Virus record (IMG/VR): IMGVR_UViG_3300031413_000001
Reading direction: 5' to 3' (one strand)
Length of the DNA: 64,000 bases
DNA from: a virus
Lineage: Duplodnaviria; Heunggongvirae; Uroviricota; Caudoviricetes
Below the pieces are notes generated by a model. That model saw only the letters and a program-made list of their open reading frames with translations, had not been told where the DNA came from and did no database searches. The first letter of the stretch is position 1, and each line of letters starts with the position of its first letter. Shown here in pieces: positions 33,357-39,369 of the stretch. The translations under genes were made by a program, and so were the position numbers.

Positions 33357-33424
33357 TTTCAATTTAGTCAAAGAAAGAGTTGGTTCACCTAGCGTTTAAC
33401 ACCAGTGTCCTTTCGCAAGTTGGA

Positions 33425-33430
33425 TAAATA
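33425..33430 (+). promoter_or_regulatory. Late promoter core TAAATA (sheath)
   Basis: 38 nt upstream of ATG 33469. Confidence 0.7.
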
Positions 33431-33468
33431 CTGACAACGAAATCCACCATTTGCGAAGGGGCTGGAAC

Positions 33469-35880
33469 ATGGTATATCCTCTAGTGTCGCCAGGTACATC
33501 AGTTACCGTAACCGACGAATCCTACTACGCATCGGCTGGCGAAGGCACTGTTCCGCTGATCATCATCGGCACCCACGAATACAAGACGCTTCCTTCGGGT
33601 GGCGGTGTGGCAGAGGGAACCCTGCCGGAGAACGCGAACAAGCTGTATCCTATCACAAGTCAGCGCGAACTCCTCCAGACCTTTGGTAATCCAATTTTCT
33701 ACAAGAAGAACGGCACTTCCGTTCACGGCTACGAGCTCAACGAGTTTGGTCTCCACGCTGCTTACCAGTATCTTGGTATTGCAAATCGCGCTTATGTGAT
33801 TCGCGCTGCGATCGACTATGCTCAGCTGATGCCAAAGGCAACTGCACCACGTGCAGAAGCTGCTCACGGTACCAACTGGCTCGATACTGCCAACAACACT
33901 TGGGGTATCTACGAATACTCGGGTAGCGAGTGGATTGAGCGTGATCTCTATGTTGTCGAAGGCAGTGACCTGGACAGCAATCTTCCTGCTGAAAGCGAGC
34001 AGGTTGCTGGTCAGAAGCCACCGGTTGCAAACCTTGGCCTAGAGAATGACCTGGCAATGGTCGTCGCATATTCCAAGAAGACTCTCTACCAGAAGGCTGG
34101 CGGAGCATGGTTGGTTGTTGGTGGTGATGCTTGGGCAGCGGCAAAGGCCGCAAGCCAGGGCGGAACTGCACCAAGCCTAACCTACAACGCTTTCCGTCCT
34201 GAGACGGCAACTGTTGGTGACATTCTCGTTCTCGAGACTCCAGCGGTTGTGACTTCGATCTCCTCGGCAGCTACTTGGTTGCTGAAGACATTCAACGTCA
34301 GCAACGGTTCTTGGACTGAGACTCTGGTCCCCATTTACAGCACCGGCAAGCAGAGCACGCTGAGCAAGACCACTGGCGCAGTTTATCTGAGCCACGAACC
34401 AAAGACTGCGGTATTTGAGTTCCGCAAGTATGATGGTTCGGCATGGGTTGGTCTTGGTGAGGAAGTAAGTTCCGACGAGCCAACGAGCGATCCAGAAGAG
34501 GGCACGCTTTGGTACAACAATGCCAACATCGTGGTCAACATCAAGGTTGCTGCAAGTGATGGTACTTGGGTTCCCTATCGTAGCCTCCACACTGCCACTG
34601 ACATCAACGGTGTCATCCTCGCAGGCAGTGCACCAACCAGCCAGAGCACTGGTGCTCCACTGGTTGAGAACGATCTGTGGGTTGACACTTCCGATGCAGA
34701 GAACTTCCCCAAGATGTTCCGTCGCACGAAGAATGTCTGGAAGGCAATCAACACTGAGAACAACATTGACGCAGTCGATGGTATTGCTTTTGGTGAGTCT
34801 TCGACAACCAGCGCACTGAACTTTGCTACTGGCATGAAGCTGTTCGATCTTGAAGCATCGACCAATGACGTCAAGCAGTATGTGGGTGGACGTTGGACCA
34901 ACGTTTCGGGCTATCAGCAGAATGGCGTTCCATTCTTTGGTCGCAAGGCACAGAGGCAGATGATTGTTACCCAGCTTGCTGGTACTCTCTCCAGCAACGA
35001 AGACATTCGCGCTGAAACCATCTACTTCAACCTCCTGGCAGCACCTGGCTACATCGAGTTGATCGATGAAATGGTAACGCTGAACACCGACATGAAGGAA
35101 GTTTCTTTCATCGTTGGTGATACCCCAGCACGCTTGAAGCCAACTGGCGTTGAGATTCAGAAGTTCGCAACCAATGCTGCCAACGGCAACACTGAGCAGG
35201 GCGTCTCGACTTTCAACCCATACGTTGGTCTCTATTACCCATGGGGCTTGAGCACCAACGTTGATGGCGCAGAGATCATGGTTCCACCGAGCACGATTGC
35301 TCTCAGGACCCTGGCCTACAATGACAGCATCAGCTATCAGTGGATGGCACCAGCTGGTTTCACCCGTGGTCTGGTCACCAACGCATCGAGCGTGGGTTAC
35401 TTGGACGATCAGGGTGAGTTCAAGGCAGCGATGCTGAACAACGGCCAGAGGGATCTGCTCTACAATAACAAGATCAACCCAATTGCGTACATTCCAAACC
35501 GTGGTCTGGTTGTCTATGGTCAGAAGACCAGGCACAACTTGGATACCTCGCTGGATCGTATCAACGTTGCACGTTTGATCAACTACCTGCGTTACAACTT
35601 GGACAACATCTCGAAGCCATTCCTCTTTGAGCCAAATGACTTCCAGACGCGTGATTCGGTCAAGACGACCTTTGAACGCTTCCTCGCTGATCTTGTGGGC
35701 CTTCGCGGTCTATATGACTTTGTGGTTGTCTGCGATGACTCCAACAACACGCCGGAACGCATCGACCGTCATGAGCTGTGGGTGGATATCGCTATCCAGC
35801 CGGTTCAGGCAATCGAGTTCATCTACATTCCAGTCCGCATTGTGGCAACTGGTGATGATTTGGGTCAGCTCTTCCAGTAA
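33469..35880 (+). CDS. gp18: Tail sheath protein (gp18-like)
   Basis: LVSPGTSVTVTDES, WMAPAGFTRG, NKINPI, LDRINVARL, FLFEPND, EFIYIPVR. Confidence 0.95.
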   Translation: MVYPLVSPGTSVTVTDESYYASAGEGTVPLIIIGTHEYKTLPSGGGVAEGTLPENANKLYPITSQRELLQTFGNPIFYKKNGTSVHGYELNEFGLHAAYQYLGIANRAYVIRAAIDYAQLMPKATAPRAEAAHGTNWLDTANNTWGIYEYSGSEWIERDLYVVEGSDLDSNLPAESEQVAGQKPPVANLGLENDLAMVVAYSKKTLYQKAGGAWLVVGGDAWAAAKAASQGGTAPSLTYNAFRPETATVGDILVLETPAVVTSISSAATWLLKTFNVSNGSWTETLVPIYSTGKQSTLSKTTGAVYLSHEPKTAVFEFRKYDGSAWVGLGEEVSSDEPTSDPEEGTLWYNNANIVVNIKVAASDGTWVPYRSLHTATDINGVILAGSAPTSQSTGAPLVENDLWVDTSDAENFPKMFRRTKNVWKAINTENNIDAVDGIAFGESSTTSALNFATGMKLFDLEASTNDVKQYVGGRWTNVSGYQQNGVPFFGRKAQRQMIVTQLAGTLSSNEDIRAETIYFNLLAAPGYIELIDEMVTLNTDMKEVSFIVGDTPARLKPTGVEIQKFATNAANGNTEQGVSTFNPYVGLYYPWGLSTNVDGAEIMVPPSTIALRTLAYNDSISYQWMAPAGFTRGLVTNASSVGYLDDQGEFKAAMLNNGQRDLLYNNKINPIAYIPNRGLVVYGQKTRHNLDTSLDRINVARLINYLRYNLDNISKPFLFEPNDFQTRDSVKTTFERFLADLVGLRGLYDFVVVCDDSNNTPERIDRHELWVDIAIQPVQAIEFIYIPVRIVATGDDLGQLFQ

Positions 35881-35892
35881 GGCAAAAACGAG

Positions 35893-35918
35893 GTGGGGAG
35901 CGGAAACGCTCCCCATTT
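35893..35918 (+). terminator. Intrinsic terminator
   Basis: GTGGGGAGCG-GAAA-CGCTCCCCAT-TT. Confidence 0.7.
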
Positions 35919-35938
35919 CCATGAGTGGCAGATTTATA

Positions 35939-35967
35939 TTGAGTGTGAGCATCAACATATCTATAAG
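35939..35967 (+). promoter_or_regulatory. Sigma70-type promoter for the non-coding region
   Basis: TTGAGT-N17-TATAAG with no protein gene until 36559. Confidence 0.55.
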
Positions 35968-35972
35968 TGAGA

Positions 35973-36505
35973 ACAGGCGCTGAGGAACGCAAGTTCCTGA
36001 ACCCATAATGCAGCCAAGGGTGACTGGGATGTGTGCTGACACATAAAGGTATTGCCCGGGTGGCTCCGGGGGTTGGCTGCAAAGCTGGAAGTGCCCAGCT
36101 AAGGTGCAACGAGGCGGTAATACTGTCTCTAGGAGTCCGGCAGCTTTTAGCTGTCTCGGGTGGTAGATAGCGGGAATGACTCCCCTGCATCCCTTTCTAG
36201 GCGCGCGTGGAAGGGGTTAGTAGTTTCGCCGGCGAGCCAAAACCGGAAGAAACGAATAAAAGCGATGGAGCAGGCCCTGGTCATCAGTCTCCGGCCTTTG
36301 GTATCGCTCTACCACCTCAGATCGAGTCCTAGCGGACGTTGACATTGGGGGGCCAAGCGTAACTGCCCCACCGGTGCGTGGAAGATGAAAGGCATAGTCT
36401 TCTGTAGGCTGGGTGTGCCAAGTACAACATCCGTTCAAACCCCGCGTGAGGGCATGGCAGACCAGTTTCCCAAGCGCACCCAGGGAGACTACGGTCTCCC
36501 TGGAC
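35973..36505 (+). ncRNA. Candidate large structured non-coding RNA (~530 nt), family not recognised
   Basis: Nested long-range helices 36009-36017/36073-36081, 36159-36167/36308-36316, 36129-36134/36327-36332, 36261-36266/36303-36308, 36409-36418/36474-36483; GCAA and cUACGg tetraloop hairpins; no credible ORF. Confidence 0.7.
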
Positions 36506-36546
36506 CCATATGACACCTTTTACTTTGACTTTTCCCAAGCCTGTGT

Positions 36547-36552
36547 TAAATA
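36547..36552 (+). promoter_or_regulatory. Late promoter core TAAATA
   Basis: Just upstream of 36559 gene. Confidence 0.5.
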
Positions 36553-36558
36553 GGAACA

Positions 36559-36858
36559 ATGGAAAAGGAAATGACCGAGGTAGAAGCGTTCTACCAAGAT
36601 GTCTCAGATCTGCTGGGCATCGAAAGCAACTACGAATACAACCGCTACACCGTTGGTGGAAAGTATTTGACCCGCTGGAACAATCGCAAGCCCGGAAACG
36701 GCCGCTTCGAGGGTTACGGCCTTATCCGGTTCTTTGGACCGGACGTTATTCACGTGGCGATCAATCATCCCATACAGATGAGTGGAAGCTACACCAGCAA
36801 GGCCGAGGTTCTCGAGGTCTTGAAAAAAGCTCTTGACGAAGGCAAAACGGCTTCGTAA
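36559..36858 (+). CDS. Hypothetical protein (alternative start 36571)
   Basis: TRWNNRKPGNGRFEGYGLIRFFG; sits between the ncRNA candidate and the Ro60 gene. Confidence 0.7.
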   Translation: MEKEMTEVEAFYQDVSDLLGIESNYEYNRYTVGGKYLTRWNNRKPGNGRFEGYGLIRFFGPDVIHVAINHPIQMSGSYTSKAEVLEVLKKALDEGKTAS

Positions 36859-36870
36859 GTAGAGCACCCA

Positions 36871-36969
36871 GGGAAGGCAACGCTTTCCCAATGGATCGAT
36901 ACAATTCCGGTCTTCATGTCAGAGACCAACCTTGCTCGTGGGTTCACGAGCCGAACTAGGAGTACGATC
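36871..36969 (+). promoter_or_regulatory. Structured leader of the Ro60 gene
   Basis: Hairpins 36871-36889, 36909-36927, 36934-36951; closing stem 36894-36898/36965-36969 encloses the AGGAG RBS. Confidence 0.4.
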
Positions 36970-36970
36970 A

Positions 36971-38653
36971 ATGAGCACCTACACCAAGGTTTTGGCTGGC
37001 GCAATCGCGCCTCAGGCAACCCCGCAGTCGCAGCCCATCCCCGGCCGTGAGGCAGAGATGGCACAGAACGCTGATGGTGGCTTCACCTTCACCATCAGCC
37101 CCTGGGATCAGCTCGACCGATTCCTGATCCTCGGAACCGAGGGCGGCACCTATTACACCAAGGAGCAGGCACTCACCGTGCAGAACGCCCAGAATGTGCT
37201 TCGGCTCATCGGGACCGACGGTGTGCGCGTGGTCAATCGTGTAGTGGAGATCAGCGATGCAGGTCGCGCCAACAAGAACGACCCCGCGTTGTTCGTGCTG
37301 GCGCTGGCTTCGGCAAGCGATGACGAGGCAACTCGTAAGGCTGCACTGGCGGCTCTCCCCAAGGTGGCTCGCATCGGCACCCACTTGTTCCACTTCGCGG
37401 CCTTCGTGGATGGAATGCGTGGTTGGGGTCGTGCGCTCAAGCGCGCTGTAGCCAACTGGTATCTCGAGATGCCCCTGGATCGTCTGGCCAACCAGGCAAT
37501 CAAGTATCAGTCGCGTGATGGCTGGTCGCACCGCGACATGCTGCGCTTGGGTCACCCCAAGGCAGACAATGCGGAGCGCGAGGCAATCCTGCGCTGGATG
37601 AGCGGTGGCATGACTGCCGTTCAGGGTTCCGACTACGTGTATGGTTCGGACGTAATGGATAACAAGGTGGTGATGCACCGCAGCAATGCGAGCAGCATCC
37701 TTCACCCGCAGATCCAGGCGTTTGAGGCTGCAAAGGTCGCAACCAAGGCATCGGAGATCATCAAGTTGATCCAGGATGCTGATCTGTCCCGCGAGGCAAT
37801 CCCCACCCAGTTCCTCAATGAGGCCAAGGTGTGGGAGGCATTGTTGCAGAACATGCCCCTCAACGCAATGATCCGCAACCTCGGCAAGATGAGCTCCGTT
37901 GGACTGATCTCGCCCATGAGCGCCGCAGAGAAGTTGGTCAAGGCCAAGCTCAGCGATGCTGATGTAATCCGCAAGTCTCGCCTCCACCCCATGGCGATCC
38001 TCTCGGCTTTTCTGACCTACGGGTCGGGCAAGGGCGTGAAGGGTTCCAATGTCTGGCCGGTGTCGCGTAGCGTTGTGGATTCCCTGGATCAGGCCTTCTA
38101 TGGTTCGTTCAAGAACGTGGTTCCCACGGGCAAGAACACCATGTTGGCACTGGACGTTTCGGCGTCCATGACCTGGGAGAACTGCGCTGGCATCCAGGGA
38201 CTGACCCCCAGGGTTGGTTCGGCTGCCATGGCGTTGATCACCGCTAACGTAGAGAGCAGCTACGAGTTCATGGCTTTTACCAGCGGCAACGGTGGCATCA
38301 GCGAGCTCAAGATCTCCCCGCGCCAGCGGTTGGACGATGTGGTCAACACCATCAATCGCATGTCGATGGGTGGAACGGACTGCGCGCTCCCCATGGTTCA
38401 CGCACTGAATGCCAAGCTGCCCGTGGAGTCGTTTGCGGTTTACACCGACAACGAGACCTGGGCTGGCCGCATCCAGCCGAGTGAGGCACTGAAGAAGTTC
38501 CGCAACAGCATGGGCATCCCTGCCAAGCTGGCCGTTGTGGGCATGACCTCGACCGGATTCAGCATTGCTGATCCCAGGGACGCGGGCATGATGGACTTTG
38601 TTGGCTTCGATGCTTCGGCACCGGCCATCATGGCAGACTTCTTCCGCAACTAA
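36971..38653 (+). CDS. rsr: TROVE-domain Ro60/Rsr RNA-binding protein with vWA domain
   Basis: RFLILGTEGGTYY, KYQSRDGWSHRDMLRLGHP, MIRNLGKM, SRLHPM, LDVSASM and TDNETW (MIDAS). Confidence 0.95.
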   Translation: MSTYTKVLAGAIAPQATPQSQPIPGREAEMAQNADGGFTFTISPWDQLDRFLILGTEGGTYYTKEQALTVQNAQNVLRLIGTDGVRVVNRVVEISDAGRANKNDPALFVLALASASDDEATRKAALAALPKVARIGTHLFHFAAFVDGMRGWGRALKRAVANWYLEMPLDRLANQAIKYQSRDGWSHRDMLRLGHPKADNAEREAILRWMSGGMTAVQGSDYVYGSDVMDNKVVMHRSNASSILHPQIQAFEAAKVATKASEIIKLIQDADLSREAIPTQFLNEAKVWEALLQNMPLNAMIRNLGKMSSVGLISPMSAAEKLVKAKLSDADVIRKSRLHPMAILSAFLTYGSGKGVKGSNVWPVSRSVVDSLDQAFYGSFKNVVPTGKNTMLALDVSASMTWENCAGIQGLTPRVGSAAMALITANVESSYEFMAFTSGNGGISELKISPRQRLDDVVNTINRMSMGGTDCALPMVHALNAKLPVESFAVYTDNETWAGRIQPSEALKKFRNSMGIPAKLAVVGMTSTGFSIADPRDAGMMDFVGFDASAPAIMADFFRN

Positions 38654-38666
38654 GACAGCGTAGAGG

Positions 38667-38691
38667 AGGGCTCGGGAAACCGGGCCCTTTT
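38667..38691 (+). terminator. Intrinsic terminator
   Basis: AGGGCTCGG-GAAA-CCGGGCCCT-TTT. Confidence 0.8.
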
Positions 38692-38744
38692 CCATGACTA
38701 CCGAGGAAGCTCTGGTAGTTAACCTTGTGCATTAATCCACCGGA

Positions 38745-38750
38745 TAAATA
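38745..38750 (+). promoter_or_regulatory. Late promoter core TAAATA (tail tube)
   Basis: 34 nt upstream of tube ATG. Confidence 0.7.
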
Positions 38751-38784: not shown

Positions 38785-39369
38785 ATGGCCGAGACACTAT
38801 CAAAGTTTGGCGTACCACTTGGCGGCGGCTCAGGCCGTGGTGGTCTGCTTCAGCTCAAGTACAAGTACCGTTTCCGCGTTCGCGTAATCAACTTCGGACC
38901 AATCGCCGGTGGACTTGACTTCACCCAGCAGGTTCAGAGCGCAAGCAAGCCCAAGATCAGCCACGAACCAGTGGAAGTTCATAGCTACAACAGCACTGCC
39001 TACTATGCTGGTAAGCACAAGTGGGACAGCATCAATATCACCCTGAAGGATGATATGACCAACAACATCGCAAAGATGGTTGGTCACCAGCTGCAGAAGC
39101 AGATGAACCACTTGGAGCAGACTGCATTCGCAGCCGGCATCAACTACAAGTTCGTCACCATCATTGAGAGCATGGACGGCGGCAACGACACGGTTGTTGA
39201 AACCTGGACCCTAGAGGGTTGCTTCCTCGAGAACGTTGAGTTCAGTGAACTTGAGTACTCGGAGAGTGGTTTCCAGACGGTCGCTCTGACGATTCGTTAC
39301 GACAACGCAACGCTGGCTGATGGTCTGATGACCGCACTGCCAGAGCTGATCCCAGGTCGTCGAGTCTAA
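38785..39369 (+). CDS. gp19: Tail tube protein (gp19-like)
   Basis: KYRFRVR, YAGKHKWDSINITLKDD, WTLEGCF, LTIRYDNA. Confidence 0.9.
   Translation: MAETLSKFGVPLGGGSGRGGLLQLKYKYRFRVRVINFGPIAGGLDFTQQVQSASKPKISHEPVEVHSYNSTAYYAGKHKWDSINITLKDDMTNNIAKMVGHQLQKQMNHLEQTAFAAGINYKFVTIIESMDGGNDTVVETWTLEGCFLENVEFSELEYSESGFQTVALTIRYDNATLADGLMTALPELIPGRRV

What the first reader, a model, noticed from the sequence alone, without database searches (positions are those of the whole stretch)
35939..36505. Unrecognised ~530-nt ornate non-coding RNA between tail sheath and Ro60
Seen: after the sheath terminator comes TTGAGT-N17-TATAAG and then ~530 nt with no credible ORF in an otherwise gene-dense genome. Perfect long-range helices: TGCAGCCAA/TTGGCTGCA (36009/36073), GGTGGTAGA/TCTACCACC (36159/36308), CTAGGA/TCCTAG (36129/36327), AGCGAT/ATCGCT (36261/36303), CTGGGTGTGC/GCGCACCCAG (36409/36474) and GT(G)CAAC/GTTGAC (36104/36338). 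These nest into multi-branch domains. Local hairpins: AGGAAC-GCAA-GTTCCT, ATGTGT-GCTG-ACACAT, AGCTGG/CCAGCT, GAGGCGGT/ACTGTCTC, GAAGAT/GTCTTC, and a terminal CCAGGGAGAC-TACG-GTCTCCCTGG (UNCG loop). A self-complementary TCGCCGGCGA (36226-36235) could mediate dimerisation. I could not match it to tmRNA, RNase P, 6S, SRP or group I/II introns. Inference: a new large phage ncRNA in the size class of ROOL/GOLLD/OLE.
Basis: partly seen in the sequence, partly recalled or inferred. Interest (0 to 1): 0.9.

Follow-up and report, generated by a model that had tools for sequence, protein, structure and literature searches.

The report
New pseudoknotted jumbo-phage non-coding RNA
The gene-free gap after the tail-sheath gene of this ~417-kb phage makes a real, abundant, intricately folded RNA of about 350 bases; its first ~135 bases belong to a widespread phage RNA family that is not in Rfam and whose function is unknown.

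Summary
Window 35881-36558 is non-coding and carries a conserved structured RNA on the + strand. Rfam 15 gives no match.

- **Structure.** Covariation is strong. In the 5' core, 43 of 47 pairs covary over 38 distinct sequences. In the 3' domain, 27 of 40 pairs covary over 11 sequences. A 4-bp pseudoknot keeps Watson-Crick pairing through three sequence variants.
- **Expression.** Four metatranscriptome runs were laid on the window. Three hold one contig ending at 35983/4 and 36315/6, and the fourth a shorter one (35988-36273). None covers the sheath gene or the 3' part. The abundant RNA is therefore about 335-350 nt, not about 530 nt.
- **The 3' part.** The stretch 36339-36503 is a separate, patchily distributed module.
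Two of the six long-range helices and the "dimerisation palindrome" are not supported.
- **Distribution.** The ~135-nt core occurs once per genome in 7 of 8 complete huge-phage records searched (8 of 10 records in all) and in many smaller phages. Most copies lie nowhere near Ro60, and 37 other Ro60-bearing phage loci lack it. It is therefore not a Ro60-specific Y RNA.
- **Best reading.** It is a stand-alone RNA made from its own promoter that most likely acts in trans, through a conserved pseudoknot pocket that binds an unknown partner.

This scan found the same family earlier on other DNA (e1-5372765, e1-5388040). New RNA family, interest 0.75.

The parts
35894..35915 (+). Hairpin ending the tail-sheath transcription unit, followed by TTCCATGAGT. 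It lies upstream of the RNA and is not part of it.
   Evidence: Sequence; terminator-like scan. The same hairpin-plus-motif element follows Ro60 and occurs elsewhere in the genome (L002).
35939..35967 (+). Sigma-70-type promoter of the RNA: -35 TTGAGT (35939-35944), 17-nt spacer, -10 TATAAG (35962-35967). The predicted start is about 35973-35976.
   Evidence: Sequence. TTG and TA are invariant in 6 homologues. Equivalent TTGnnn-N17-TAnnnT boxes precede the core in most jumbo-phage copies. The strict consensus scan did not call it.
35973..36325 (+). The RNA itself, about 350 nt, with inferred ends. The part seen directly as RNA contigs is 35983/4-36315/6.
   Evidence: One contig per run in 4 metatranscriptomes: three span 35983/4-36315/6 and one spans 35988-36273. 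All are 100% identical, with no loose ends and no cover of the flanks. 17 RNA runs hold 65-100% of its words. The ~10 nt added at each end are inference from the promoter position and the usual end loss of RNA-seq libraries.
35977..36107 (+). Domain 1, the family-defining core. P1 is 35977-81/36103-07, P2 35983-88/35993-98, P3 36009-18/36072-81, P4 36030-34/36039-43, P5 36056-59/36066-69 and P6 36084-88/36095-99. Near-invariant joining strands are UGAACCCAUAA, GGUGACUGGG and UAAAGGUA.
   Evidence: Covariance model R1. It gave 47 hits, 38 distinct, and 65 hits over 65 loci deduplicated by core sequence. 91% of cells are paired and 43 of 47 pairs covary. The covariation score is 0.66, against 0.16 shuffled and 0.06-0.07 slid. 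Coordinates.
36002..36005 (+). Pseudoknot 5' strand, CCCA, in the P2-P3 joining strand.
   Evidence: It pairs with 36025-36028. All 65 sequences keep 4 Watson-Crick pairs. The variants CCUA:UAGG (L128 Phosso, L190) and CCUC:GAGG (L161) are compensatory.
36025..36028 (+). Pseudoknot 3' strand, UGGG, just inside P3. With P3 it forms an H-type pseudoknot.
   Evidence: It overlaps by 1 nt the 3-bp P4a predicted by RNAalifold, which never covaries.
36111..36155 (+). Linker hairpins P7 (36111-17/36123-29) and P8 (36139-36155).
   Evidence: P7 has 7 of 7 pairs covarying in the family alignment (helix 8). P8 covaries weakly among 6 relatives.
36158..36316 (+). Domain 2, clade-specific. Closing helix P9 (36158-64/36310-16) encloses hairpins P10, P11, P12 and P13.
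   Evidence: Model R2 finds it only in 11 close relatives. 97% of cells are paired and 27 of 40 pairs covary. The covariation score is 0.60, against 0.27 shuffled and 0.08-0.14 slid.
36318..36326 (+). CAGAUCGAG. Its GAUCG is invariant in all 10 full-length relatives and sits immediately after P9, at the likely 3' end. Its role is unknown.
   Evidence: Alignment; contig ends at 36315/6. The heptamer itself is not over-represented in the window.
36339..36503 (+). It contains the hairpin 36380-36402, a possible helix 36409-18/36474-83 and the terminal UNCG hairpin 36480-36503. It begins with a TTGACA box.
   Evidence: It is shared only with L048, L051 and L188, with compensatory changes in two hairpins. 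It is absent from L005, L006, L082 and L256. It is not covered by any of the 4 RNA runs laid.
36525..36552 (+). Promoter of the 99-aa gene: TTGACT-N16-TAAATA, ending 6 nt before the ATG, which implies a leaderless-type start.
   Evidence: It is conserved, as TTGAC(A/T/G)-N16/17-TAAATA, in at least 8 of the 10 relatives printed.
36559..36858 (+). orf99, a small conserved protein of unknown fold family. It is a possible protein partner of the RNA, by inference from gene linkage only.
   Evidence: It has 39 homologues and no Pfam family, and an invariant basic loop TRWNNRxPGxGRF. The model is alpha-beta3-alpha with pLDDT 80, with no significant fold match. It follows the RNA in 10 of 10 assessable relatives with domain 2, including L082, where the order is sheath-RNA-orf99-tube without Ro60.
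36932..38653 (+). Ro60/Rsr homologue (TROVE plus vWA domains). It is a neighbour and is not shown to belong to the RNA.
   Evidence: Pfam PF05731 1.9e-40 and PF25045 2.1e-57. The core RNA is absent within 4 kb of Ro60 in 37 other phage loci.

Best explanation
Window ~35973-36325 (+) encodes a discrete, abundant non-coding RNA of about 350 nt.

**How it is made**
- It is transcribed from its own sigma-70-type promoter, placed directly after the tail-sheath terminator.
- It sits between two late genes, sheath and tube. These two are the only genes in the window preceded by the late-type GATAAATA box.

**How it is built**
- Domain 1 is a ~135-nt core: closing helix P1, hairpin P2, and a 10-bp helix P3 that carries hairpins P4 and P5, followed by hairpin P6.
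- An H-type pseudoknot (CCCA:UGGG) locks domain 1 together, and the joining strands are almost invariant.
- This core defines a widespread phage RNA family that Rfam does not hold.
- Domain 2 is a ~160-nt four-hairpin unit closed by P9. It is found only in the closest clade.
- Three of the four contigs end at P9, just before the invariant GAUCG. There is no intrinsic terminator there, so the 3' end is probably made by processing.

**How it most likely works (inferred, not shown)**
- It is a stable trans-acting RNA.
- Its conserved pseudoknot pocket binds one conserved partner, either a host macromolecule or a small ligand.
- The clade-specific 3' domain adapts it, possibly as the docking site for the tightly linked 99-aa protein.
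- Ro60 is a neighbour by insertion into the same sheath-tube hotspot, not the RNA's defining partner.

**Sub-confidences**
- Real conserved structured RNA: 0.97.
- Discrete transcript of about 350 nt: 0.85.
- Trans-acting binder of a conserved partner: about 0.45.
For: **Structure**
- RNAalifold on 10 full-length relatives gives 92 pairs, 52 with compensatory changes.
- Domain 1: 43 of 47 pairs covary over 38 distinct sequences, far above the shuffled and slid controls.
- Domain 2: 27 of 40 pairs covary.
- The pseudoknot keeps 4 Watson-Crick pairs in 65 of 65 sequences through three sequence variants.
- The region is non-coding: all indels are non-multiples of 3 and no frame stays open.

**Expression**
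- In 4 metatranscriptomes from 4 study codes, the window stretch 34400-38000 is covered by one contig over the RNA: 35983/4-36315/6 in three runs and 35988-36273 in the fourth.
- Word depth is 2.9-13.2 over the RNA. It is 0 over the sheath part and over 36336-37060, and 2-3.8 over short Ro60 pieces.
- DNA contamination would have covered the flanks as well.
- 17 RNA runs hold 65-100% of the core's words. With the 680-nt query, RNA runs held only 35-41% of the words while DNA runs held up to 100%.

**Promoter**
- It is conserved in relatives.
- The late-type box GATAAATA occurs only before sheath and tube.

**Independence from Ro60 and from downstream genes**
- The core lies in sheath-tube gaps that lack Ro60.
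- It also lies behind ParB-like genes in smaller phages.
- orf99 has its own promoter.

**Copy number and range**
- One copy per record in 8 of 10 jumbo-phage records searched, and none in the other two.
- No true copy in one genome each of 185,579 prokaryote species under a strict pattern.
- 45 further copies in metagenome contigs.
Against: - No partner or ligand has been identified, so the trans-acting binder model is inference from anatomy and distribution.
- The contigs are assemblies. They cannot give exact ends, strand or relative levels, and many of the RNA runs may belong to one or a few sampling campaigns (2019 leaf litter and phyllosphere).
- The 5' contig end (35983/4) lies after the 5' strand of P1. 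Either ~10 nt are lost in library making (assumed here) or the RNA is processed there.
- In smaller phages the core sits 5-30 nt before the DNA polymerase start and is followed by a U-rich tract. That arrangement fits a cis-acting element better.
- The family set is biased. Most members were fetched with a pattern that fixes two of the conserved strands.
Confidence: 0.55

Rival explanations
1. The primary transcript is the ~530-560-nt RNA the reader proposed. It would run through module E1 to the strong UNCG hairpin at 36480-36503. The ~350-nt species would be its stable processed core, or E1 would be a second small RNA made from the TTGACA box at 36339.
For: - There is no intrinsic terminator between 36316 and 36480.
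- E1 is structured, and two of its hairpins covary among 4 lineages.
- E1 ends in a 10-bp GC-rich hairpin.
Against: - None of the 4 RNA runs laid covers 36336-37060. RNA runs hold only the core's share of words.
- E1 is absent from L005, L006, L082 and L256, which keep the core and domain 2.
- The terminal hairpin is not followed by a U-run.
Confidence: 0.2
2. It is the RNA partner of the adjacent phage Ro60, a giant functional analogue of Y RNA. It would tether Ro60 to a nuclease or present structured RNAs to it.
For: - It lies about 600 nt upstream of Ro60 on the same strand. That meets the rule that bacterial and phage Y RNAs lie within 4 kb on the same strand (PMC4201824).
- No YrlA-like or tRNA-like RNA exists anywhere in the window.
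- The neighbouring gaps hold only terminator and promoter elements.
- Ro60 follows the RNA in several relatives.
Against: - The core occurs mostly without Ro60 nearby: L082 and the L058, L080, L116, L091 types, and the ParB/PolA phages.
- 37 other Ro60 phage loci lack it. There Ro60 sits among tRNAs with YrlA-sized tRNA-like hits instead.
- No tRNA-like domain is found, and no GNCGAA motif near the 5' end was seen by eye in the alignment.
Confidence: 0.12
3. The core is a cis-acting sensor or attenuator, a riboswitch-like aptamer or protein operator. It would control transcription or translation of what lies downstream. The jumbo-phage form would be a leader for orf99, Ro60 and tube.
For: - Junction nucleotides are near-invariant and there is a pseudoknot, as in aptamers.
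- In 12 of 65 loci the core, closed by a long P1 and a U-rich tract, ends 5-30 nt before a family-A DNA polymerase start.
Against: - In this window the contigs stop about 240 nt before orf99.
- orf99 and tube have their own promoters.
- Downstream genes differ widely across the family.
- In jumbo phages 170-700 nt of further structured RNA separate the core from the next gene.
Confidence: 0.1
4. It is an RNA-only multimeric assembly (cage, ring or filament), as recently shown for GOLLD, ROOL, OLE and the manA motif.
For: - It is phage-encoded, ornate, abundant and of unknown function, like GOLLD and ROOL.
- Cryo-EM precedents exist (PMC12286853; bioRxiv 10.64898/2026.07.01.735769).
Against: - No conserved self-complementary loop was found.
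- No homology to those families.
Confidence: 0.08
5. It is a ribozyme, self-cleaving or otherwise, whose cleavage sets the observed ends.
For: - It has a compact pseudoknotted core with invariant nucleotides.
- In three of the four runs the contig begins at 35983/4, exactly at the first base of P2, and ends at the end of P9 (36315/6).
Against: - No match to any ribozyme family in Rfam.
- The ~10-nt shortfall at the ends is what RNA-seq libraries usually lose.
- P1, which would be cut off, covaries.
Confidence: 0.05

Closest known systems
GOLLD and ROOL RNAs (Rfam RF01998, RF03087)
   Same: They are large, many-helix, pseudoknot-containing non-coding RNAs carried by phages. They are made as separate transcripts, are abundant, and have unknown function.
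   Different: - No sequence or structure match, even at E up to 10.
- This RNA is smaller: about 350 nt against about 580-800 nt.
- It is built as a widespread ~135-nt core plus exchangeable 3' modules.
- It is not next to tRNA genes; the window has none.
- No evidence of multimer contacts.
Bacterial and phage Y RNAs (YrlA/Yrn1), partners of Ro60/Rsr
   Same: It is encoded on the same strand within 1 kb of a Ro60 gene, is non-coding and structured, and is separately expressed.
   Different: - No tRNA-like D/T-arm domain.
- No GNCGAA motif near the 5' end.
- It is 3 times longer.
- The family is mostly found without Ro60, and most Ro60 phages lack it.
Riboswitch aptamers with pseudoknotted multi-helix junctions
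   Same: The core is of similar size (110-135 nt), has near-invariant joining strands and a pseudoknot. In small phages it sits directly before a gene start and has a U-rich tract.
   Different: - No ligand is known.
- No Rfam riboswitch matches.
- In this window the RNA has its own promoter, ends well before the next gene, and accumulates as a discrete RNA.
Unnamed candidate structured RNAs of viruses and phages (PMC10690425, over 10,000 candidates from IMG/VR)
   Same: It has the same source data (IMG/VR) and is the same type of object, so this family may be among those candidates.
   Different: - The paper's text mentions neither sheath, ParB, jumbo phages nor DNA polymerase leaders.
- Its tables were not available to check.
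- No name, structure or expression data are known for this family.

Membership tests
Any Rfam 15 family (includes tmRNA, RNase P, 6S, SRP, group I/II introns, GOLLD, ROOL, OLE, raiA, HEARO, ribozymes, riboswitches) | Score at or above the family's gathering threshold with its covariance model | tested here: not met
   - No match in the whole window at gathering thresholds.
- At E up to 10 on 35800-36700 there are only chance-level hits: an sroE-like hit on the sheath terminator and two microRNA models.
- No match over the motif in 14 homologous loci.
Y RNA (YrlA type) | tRNA-like domain with D and T arms | tested here: not met
   ARAGORN finds no tRNA-like gene in the window. There is no Rfam tRNA hit. 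In other Ro60 phage loci, tRNA-model hits of 120-129 nt lie just upstream of Ro60.
Y RNA (YrlA type) | GNCGAA(N0-1)G motif near the 5' end, the presumed Ro60 contact (PMC4201824) | tested here: not met
   It is absent from the first 150 nt of the RNA. The only similar strings, (A/U/G)CGAAUA in domain 2 and GAUCG(A/G) at the 3' end, do not fit the motif or its position. This was checked by eye, not with a model.
Y RNA (YrlA type) | Co-occurrence with a Ro60 gene within 4 kb on the same strand | tested here: inconclusive
   This is met in this window and several relatives. It is not met for most family members, and 37 other Ro60 loci lack the core.
Y RNA (any type) | Physical binding to Ro60 | not testable with these tools
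   This needs Ro60 immunoprecipitation or gel-shift experiments.
GOLLD / ROOL class (ornate phage RNAs forming homo-oligomers) | Homology to the family model, and conserved intermolecular contacts | tested here: not met
   No model match. The one self-complementary string proposed is an intramolecular helix arm whose sequence varies. Oligomeric state itself cannot be tested here.
New family defined here (core model R1) | P1-P6 architecture with the CCCA:UGGG-type pseudoknot and the strands GAACC(C/U)(A/C)UA, GAC(U/G)(G/A)GG and AAAGGUA | tested here: met
   The window scores 171 bits, E about 1e-44. All helices and the pseudoknot are present at 35977-36107.
Riboswitch | Ligand-dependent structure coupled to an expression platform | not testable with these tools
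   Only anatomy can be judged. There is no expression platform next to a gene in this window. There is a terminator-like U-tract before PolA in small phages.

The most novel reading that the evidence does not exclude
The ~135-nt pseudoknotted core is a new ligand-binding aptamer class. In small phages it would gate DNA polymerase expression in cis. In jumbo phages it would be made as an abundant free RNA that soaks up a host signal or defence molecule in trans, acting as an RNA counterpart of the protein "sponges" that phages use against nucleotide-based immunity.
Probability: 0.1. Interest if true: 0.95.

Novelty: categorically new. Interest (0 to 1): 0.75.

Why it matters
Few large, intricately folded bacterial or phage RNAs are known, and almost every one has led to new biology or remains a prominent puzzle (GOLLD, ROOL, OLE, raiA).

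- **What is new here.** This is an RNA family with very strong covariation and a proven pseudoknot. It has near-invariant joining strands and occurs once per genome in phages from about 15 kb contigs to 600-kb genomes. Direct evidence from environmental RNA shows that the jumbo-phage version accumulates as a discrete molecule while a major late gene next to it is not detected.
- **Why it is tractable.** The modular build, with a universal core plus swappable 3' domains, makes experiments easier. So do the tightly linked 99-aa protein and a cultivable carrier, Sinorhizobium phage Phosso.
- **What it corrects.** It removes the tempting idea that this RNA is simply the Y RNA of the phage Ro60.
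- **Caveat on novelty.** The general category, ornate phage RNAs of unknown function, has precedents. The family itself has none that I could find.

Tried and rejected
- **Similar DNA in cultured phages.** blastn of the gap against 50,697 phage records found nothing. Sequence identity is too low outside the close clade, so covariance models were needed.
- **Domain 2 outside the close clade.** Model R2 found no hits in about 80 other loci. More distant family members carry other 3' sequences.
- **Core near other Ro60 genes.** None was found in 37 loci.
- **Core in four other cultured jumbo phages.** Atu_ph07, PA5oct, 121Q and CBB have no hit.
- **Core in prokaryote genomes.** 5 pattern hits were all chance. 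The pattern was strict, so diverged prophage copies could be missed.
- **Y RNA in the gaps flanking Ro60.** Only terminator hairpins, a late-type box and ribosome-binding sites are there.
- **orf99 fold.** No PDB match at E <= 0.001. The only AlphaFold-cluster match at E <= 0.001 is one unnamed 84-aa protein with 35% identity. dsRBD-like rows at E about 2 are not evidence.
- **AGATCGR as a repeated signal.** It is not over-represented: 23 observed against 19 expected.
- **Extra tertiary pairs.** My column-pair scan was too permissive with G-U pairs and gave nothing usable beyond the pseudoknot.
- **Literature.** Five searches found no description of this RNA. The supplementary tables of PMC10690425 were not available.
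- **Parts of the window without RNA contigs** (sheath, 36336-37060). These serve only as an internal control against DNA contamination, not as proof that those parts are silent.
Full report
**1. What is in the window**

The window comes from a phage of about 417 kb. The nearest record is IMG/VR UViG_3300031088_000008, which is 100% identical over the gap. Its tail sheath is about 52% identical to those of Sinorhizobium phage Phosso and Agrobacterium phage Atu_ph07.

The gene order is as follows:

| Coordinates | Feature |
|---|---|
| 33451-35880 | tail sheath |
| 35881-36558 | 678-nt gap |
| 36559-36858 | 99-aa ORF (orf99) |
| 36932-38653 | Ro60 (TROVE and vWA domains) |
| 38785-39369 | gp19-type tail tube |

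The gap has no Rfam match at gathering thresholds anywhere in the window. At E up to 10 there are only chance-level hits. There is no tRNA or tmRNA.

Folding energy is only modestly better than shuffled sequence: z = -2.4 on the + strand and -1.85 on the - strand. Energy alone would not make the case.

**2. Homologues and covariation**

Ro60-anchored loci and a motif scan of IMG/VR gave five diverged relatives of the gap: L005, L006, L007, L048 and L051. They are about 72% identical in DNA while Ro60 is 68-85% identical in protein. More relatives came later: L082, L143, L188/L189, L256 and L271.

- RNAalifold on 10 full-length sequences predicts 92 pairs, 52 with compensatory changes.
- No reading frame is kept, and all indels are non-multiples of 3.
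- The ORFs in the region have no Pfam hit.

The RNA divides into two domains:

- **Domain 1** (35977-36107) contains P1 to P6.
- **Two linker hairpins**, P7 and P8, follow.
- **Domain 2** (36158-36316) is closed by P9 and holds four hairpins (coordinates).

**3. A widespread family**

A covariance model of domain 1 (R1) found the following:

- 47 matches in IMG/VR loci
- 45 in metagenome contigs
- others reached through tube-anchored loci and whole records
- 65 matches over 65 loci deduplicated by core sequence

On 38 distinct sequences, 91% of cells are paired and 43 of 47 pairs covary. The covariation score is 0.66, against 0.16 for shuffles and 0.06-0.07 for slid partners. That alignment was fitted to the model, which favours the structure, but the margin is very large.

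A pairing between the P2-P3 joining strand and the strand just inside P3 forms an H-type pseudoknot with P3. All 65 sequences keep four Watson-Crick pairs. The three variants CCCA:UGGG, CCUA:UAGG (Phosso and L190) and CCUC:GAGG (L161) are compensatory.

There is a caveat. Most members were fetched with a pattern that fixes parts of these strands. The informative variants come from loci found by other routes.

Domain 2 (model R2) exists only in 11 close relatives. There 27 of 40 pairs covary and 97% of cells are paired.

**4. Where the family sits**

- In jumbo phages the core follows the sheath gene and precedes the tube gene. A variable set of genes lies between, and usually there is no Ro60.
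- It was found once per record in 8 of 10 jumbo-phage records searched, and not at all in the other two, G008 (77% complete) and G009.
- Among five cultured jumbo phages only Phosso has it.
- In smaller phages it follows a ParB-like gene: 15 of 38 upstream ORFs that are not sheath.
- In 12 of 65 loci it ends 5-30 nt before a family-A DNA polymerase start, closed by a long P1 and a U-rich tract.
- 37 other Ro60-bearing phage loci lack it. There Ro60 lies among tRNAs, with tRNA-model hits of 120-129 nt just upstream, which are probably YrlA-type Y RNAs.
- A strict pattern scan of one genome for each of 185,579 prokaryote species gave only five chance hits.

**5. Expression**

Seventeen metatranscriptome runs (leaf litter, phyllosphere, soil) hold 65-100% of the words of 35984-36316. 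With the whole 680-nt gap as query, RNA runs held only 35-41% of the words while DNA runs held up to 100%.

Four RNA runs from four study codes were laid on 34400-38000. Each gave one contig over the RNA:

| Run | Contig | Length (nt) | Word depth |
|---|---|---|---|
| X12 | 35984-36315 | 332 | 13.2 |
| X13 | 35984-36316 | 333 | 4.4 |
| X15 | 35983-36315 | 333 | 11.1 |
| X20 | 35988-36273 | 286 | 2.9 |

All four contigs are 100% identical to the window and have no loose ends. Nothing covers the sheath part or 36336-37060, and only short low-depth pieces lie over Ro60.

DNA carry-over would have covered the flanks, so this is RNA. It is a discrete species, more abundant or more stable than the neighbouring late mRNA.

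Contigs cannot give exact ends or the strand. I infer about 10 nt more at each end. That places the 5' end at the start predicted from the promoter (about 35973-35976) and the 3' end in the invariant GAUCG just after P9. Strand assignment rests on the promoter, on G-U pairs in the helices and on the strand-specific model hits.

**6. Promoters**

- The RNA has TTGAGT-N17-TATAAG (35939-35967). Its TTG and TA are invariant in relatives. Similar boxes precede most jumbo-phage copies.
- The late-type box GATAAATA occurs only twice in 64 kb, before sheath and before tube.
- orf99 has its own TTGACT-N16-TAAATA box ending 6 nt before its ATG. This box is conserved in at least 8 of the 10 relatives printed.

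The RNA and orf99 are therefore separate units set among late genes. That they are expressed early is inference.

**7. The 3' 165 nt**

The stretch 36339-36503 (module E1) is structured and is shared with L048, L051 and L188. It is absent from L005, L006, L082 and L256, and it is not in the RNA contigs.

Relatives carry yet another module (E2) that the window lacks. Neither module matches Rfam. The region downstream of the core is a mosaic of RNA modules.

**8.

- Four of six long-range helices hold.
- CTAGGA/TCCTAG and GT(G)CAAC/GTTGAC are not kept in homologues, and their 3' arms lie beyond the RNA's end.
- TCGCCGGCGA is an arm of P12. Its sequence changes in relatives while pairing is kept, so it gives no support for dimerisation.

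**9. Function**

Shown:

- It is a conserved fold with a pseudoknot.
- It has its own promoter.
- It accumulates as a discrete RNA.
- It occurs at most once per jumbo-phage record searched.
- It is independent of Ro60 across the family.
- It is tightly linked to orf99 in the domain-2 clade: 10 of 10 assessable loci, including L082, where the order is sheath-RNA-orf99-tube without Ro60.

Inferred:

- The near-invariant joining strands around the pseudoknot form a pocket for one conserved partner. The carriers are very diverse phages (GC 36-68%), so the partner is more likely a conserved host molecule or a small ligand than a phage protein.
- The 3' domain is a clade-specific adaptor, possibly for orf99.

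orf99 has an invariant basic loop and an alpha-beta3-alpha model without any informative fold match.

The small-phage arrangement before DNA polymerase keeps a cis-acting, aptamer-like role open for the core. I rate the trans-acting binder model at about 0.45. The rivals are:

| Rival | Probability |
|---|---|
| Longer primary transcript | 0.2 |
| Ro60 partner | 0.12 |
| Cis-regulator | 0.1 |
| Multimeric assembly | 0.08 |
| Ribozyme | 0.05 |

**10. Comparison and novelty**

The closest in kind are GOLLD and ROOL, which are phage-borne, ornate and of unknown function, but there is no homology to them.

It fails the tested Y RNA features: no tRNA-like domain, no 5' GNCGAA motif, and no consistent Ro60 linkage (PMC4201824).

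Five literature searches found no description. The family might be among the unnamed candidates of PMC10690425, whose tables I could not read.

The same family was noted earlier in this scan on two other genomes (e1-5372765, e1-5388040). I re-derived the family, the pseudoknot and the Ro60 independence myself, and I added the RNA-level evidence.

**Verdict:** a real, new RNA family.

Noticed in passing
window 36525-36858: orf99 belongs to a small family of 39 proteins of 85-100 aa with no Pfam family. It has an invariant basic loop, TRWNNRxPGxGRF. Its promoter-like box TTGAC(A/T/G)-N16/17-TAAATA ends 5-9 nt before the ATG in at least 8 of the 10 relatives printed, which suggests a leaderless mRNA.
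   Followed up: partly
window 33423-33430 and 38743-38750: GATAAATA occurs only twice in 64 kb, about 25-40 nt before the sheath and tube starts. It is probably the T4-like late promoter box of this phage.
   Followed up: partly
window 35894-35935 and 38663-38700; L002 1498-1608: A GC-rich terminator hairpin followed by TTCCATGA(G/C)T recurs after sheath, after Ro60 and at a distant place in the genome. It is a repeated end-of-unit element.
   Followed up: no
window 36932-38653: The phage Ro60 has no recognisable YrlA-type or tRNA-like RNA anywhere in the 64-kb window, so its RNA partner, if any, is unknown. In other Ro60 phages the gene sits in tRNA arrays with 120-129-nt tRNA-model hits just upstream (L016 3603-3722 and 3728-3856).
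   Followed up: partly
L007 ~2630-2930; L048, L051, L256, L188 (alignment): A further conserved structured module (E2, starting AGATCGAAGAGCCGATG) lies downstream of the core RNA in relatives. It is absent from this window and has no Rfam match.
   Followed up: partly
L084 7073-7200, L072, L229, L245, L205 and others: In smaller phages the order is ParB-like gene, then the core RNA closed by a long P1 plus a U-rich tract, then a family-A DNA polymerase start within 5-30 nt. This arrangement suggests cis control of the polymerase.
   Followed up: partly
sheath-tube interval in relatives (L005, L007, L147/G006, PA5oct L129): The interval between sheath and tube is an insertion hotspot. It holds Ro60, orf99, a 215-aa ORF, a 345-aa ORF, or a Hef-like homing endonuclease in PA5oct, and it spans from 0.7 to over 6 kb.
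   Followed up: no
L161 2841-2921 (-): An mmgR/suhB-type sRNA (RF00519, 59 bits) lies about 500 nt downstream of that phage's core copy. This hints at an alphaproteobacterial host and at capture of a host sRNA.
   Followed up: no
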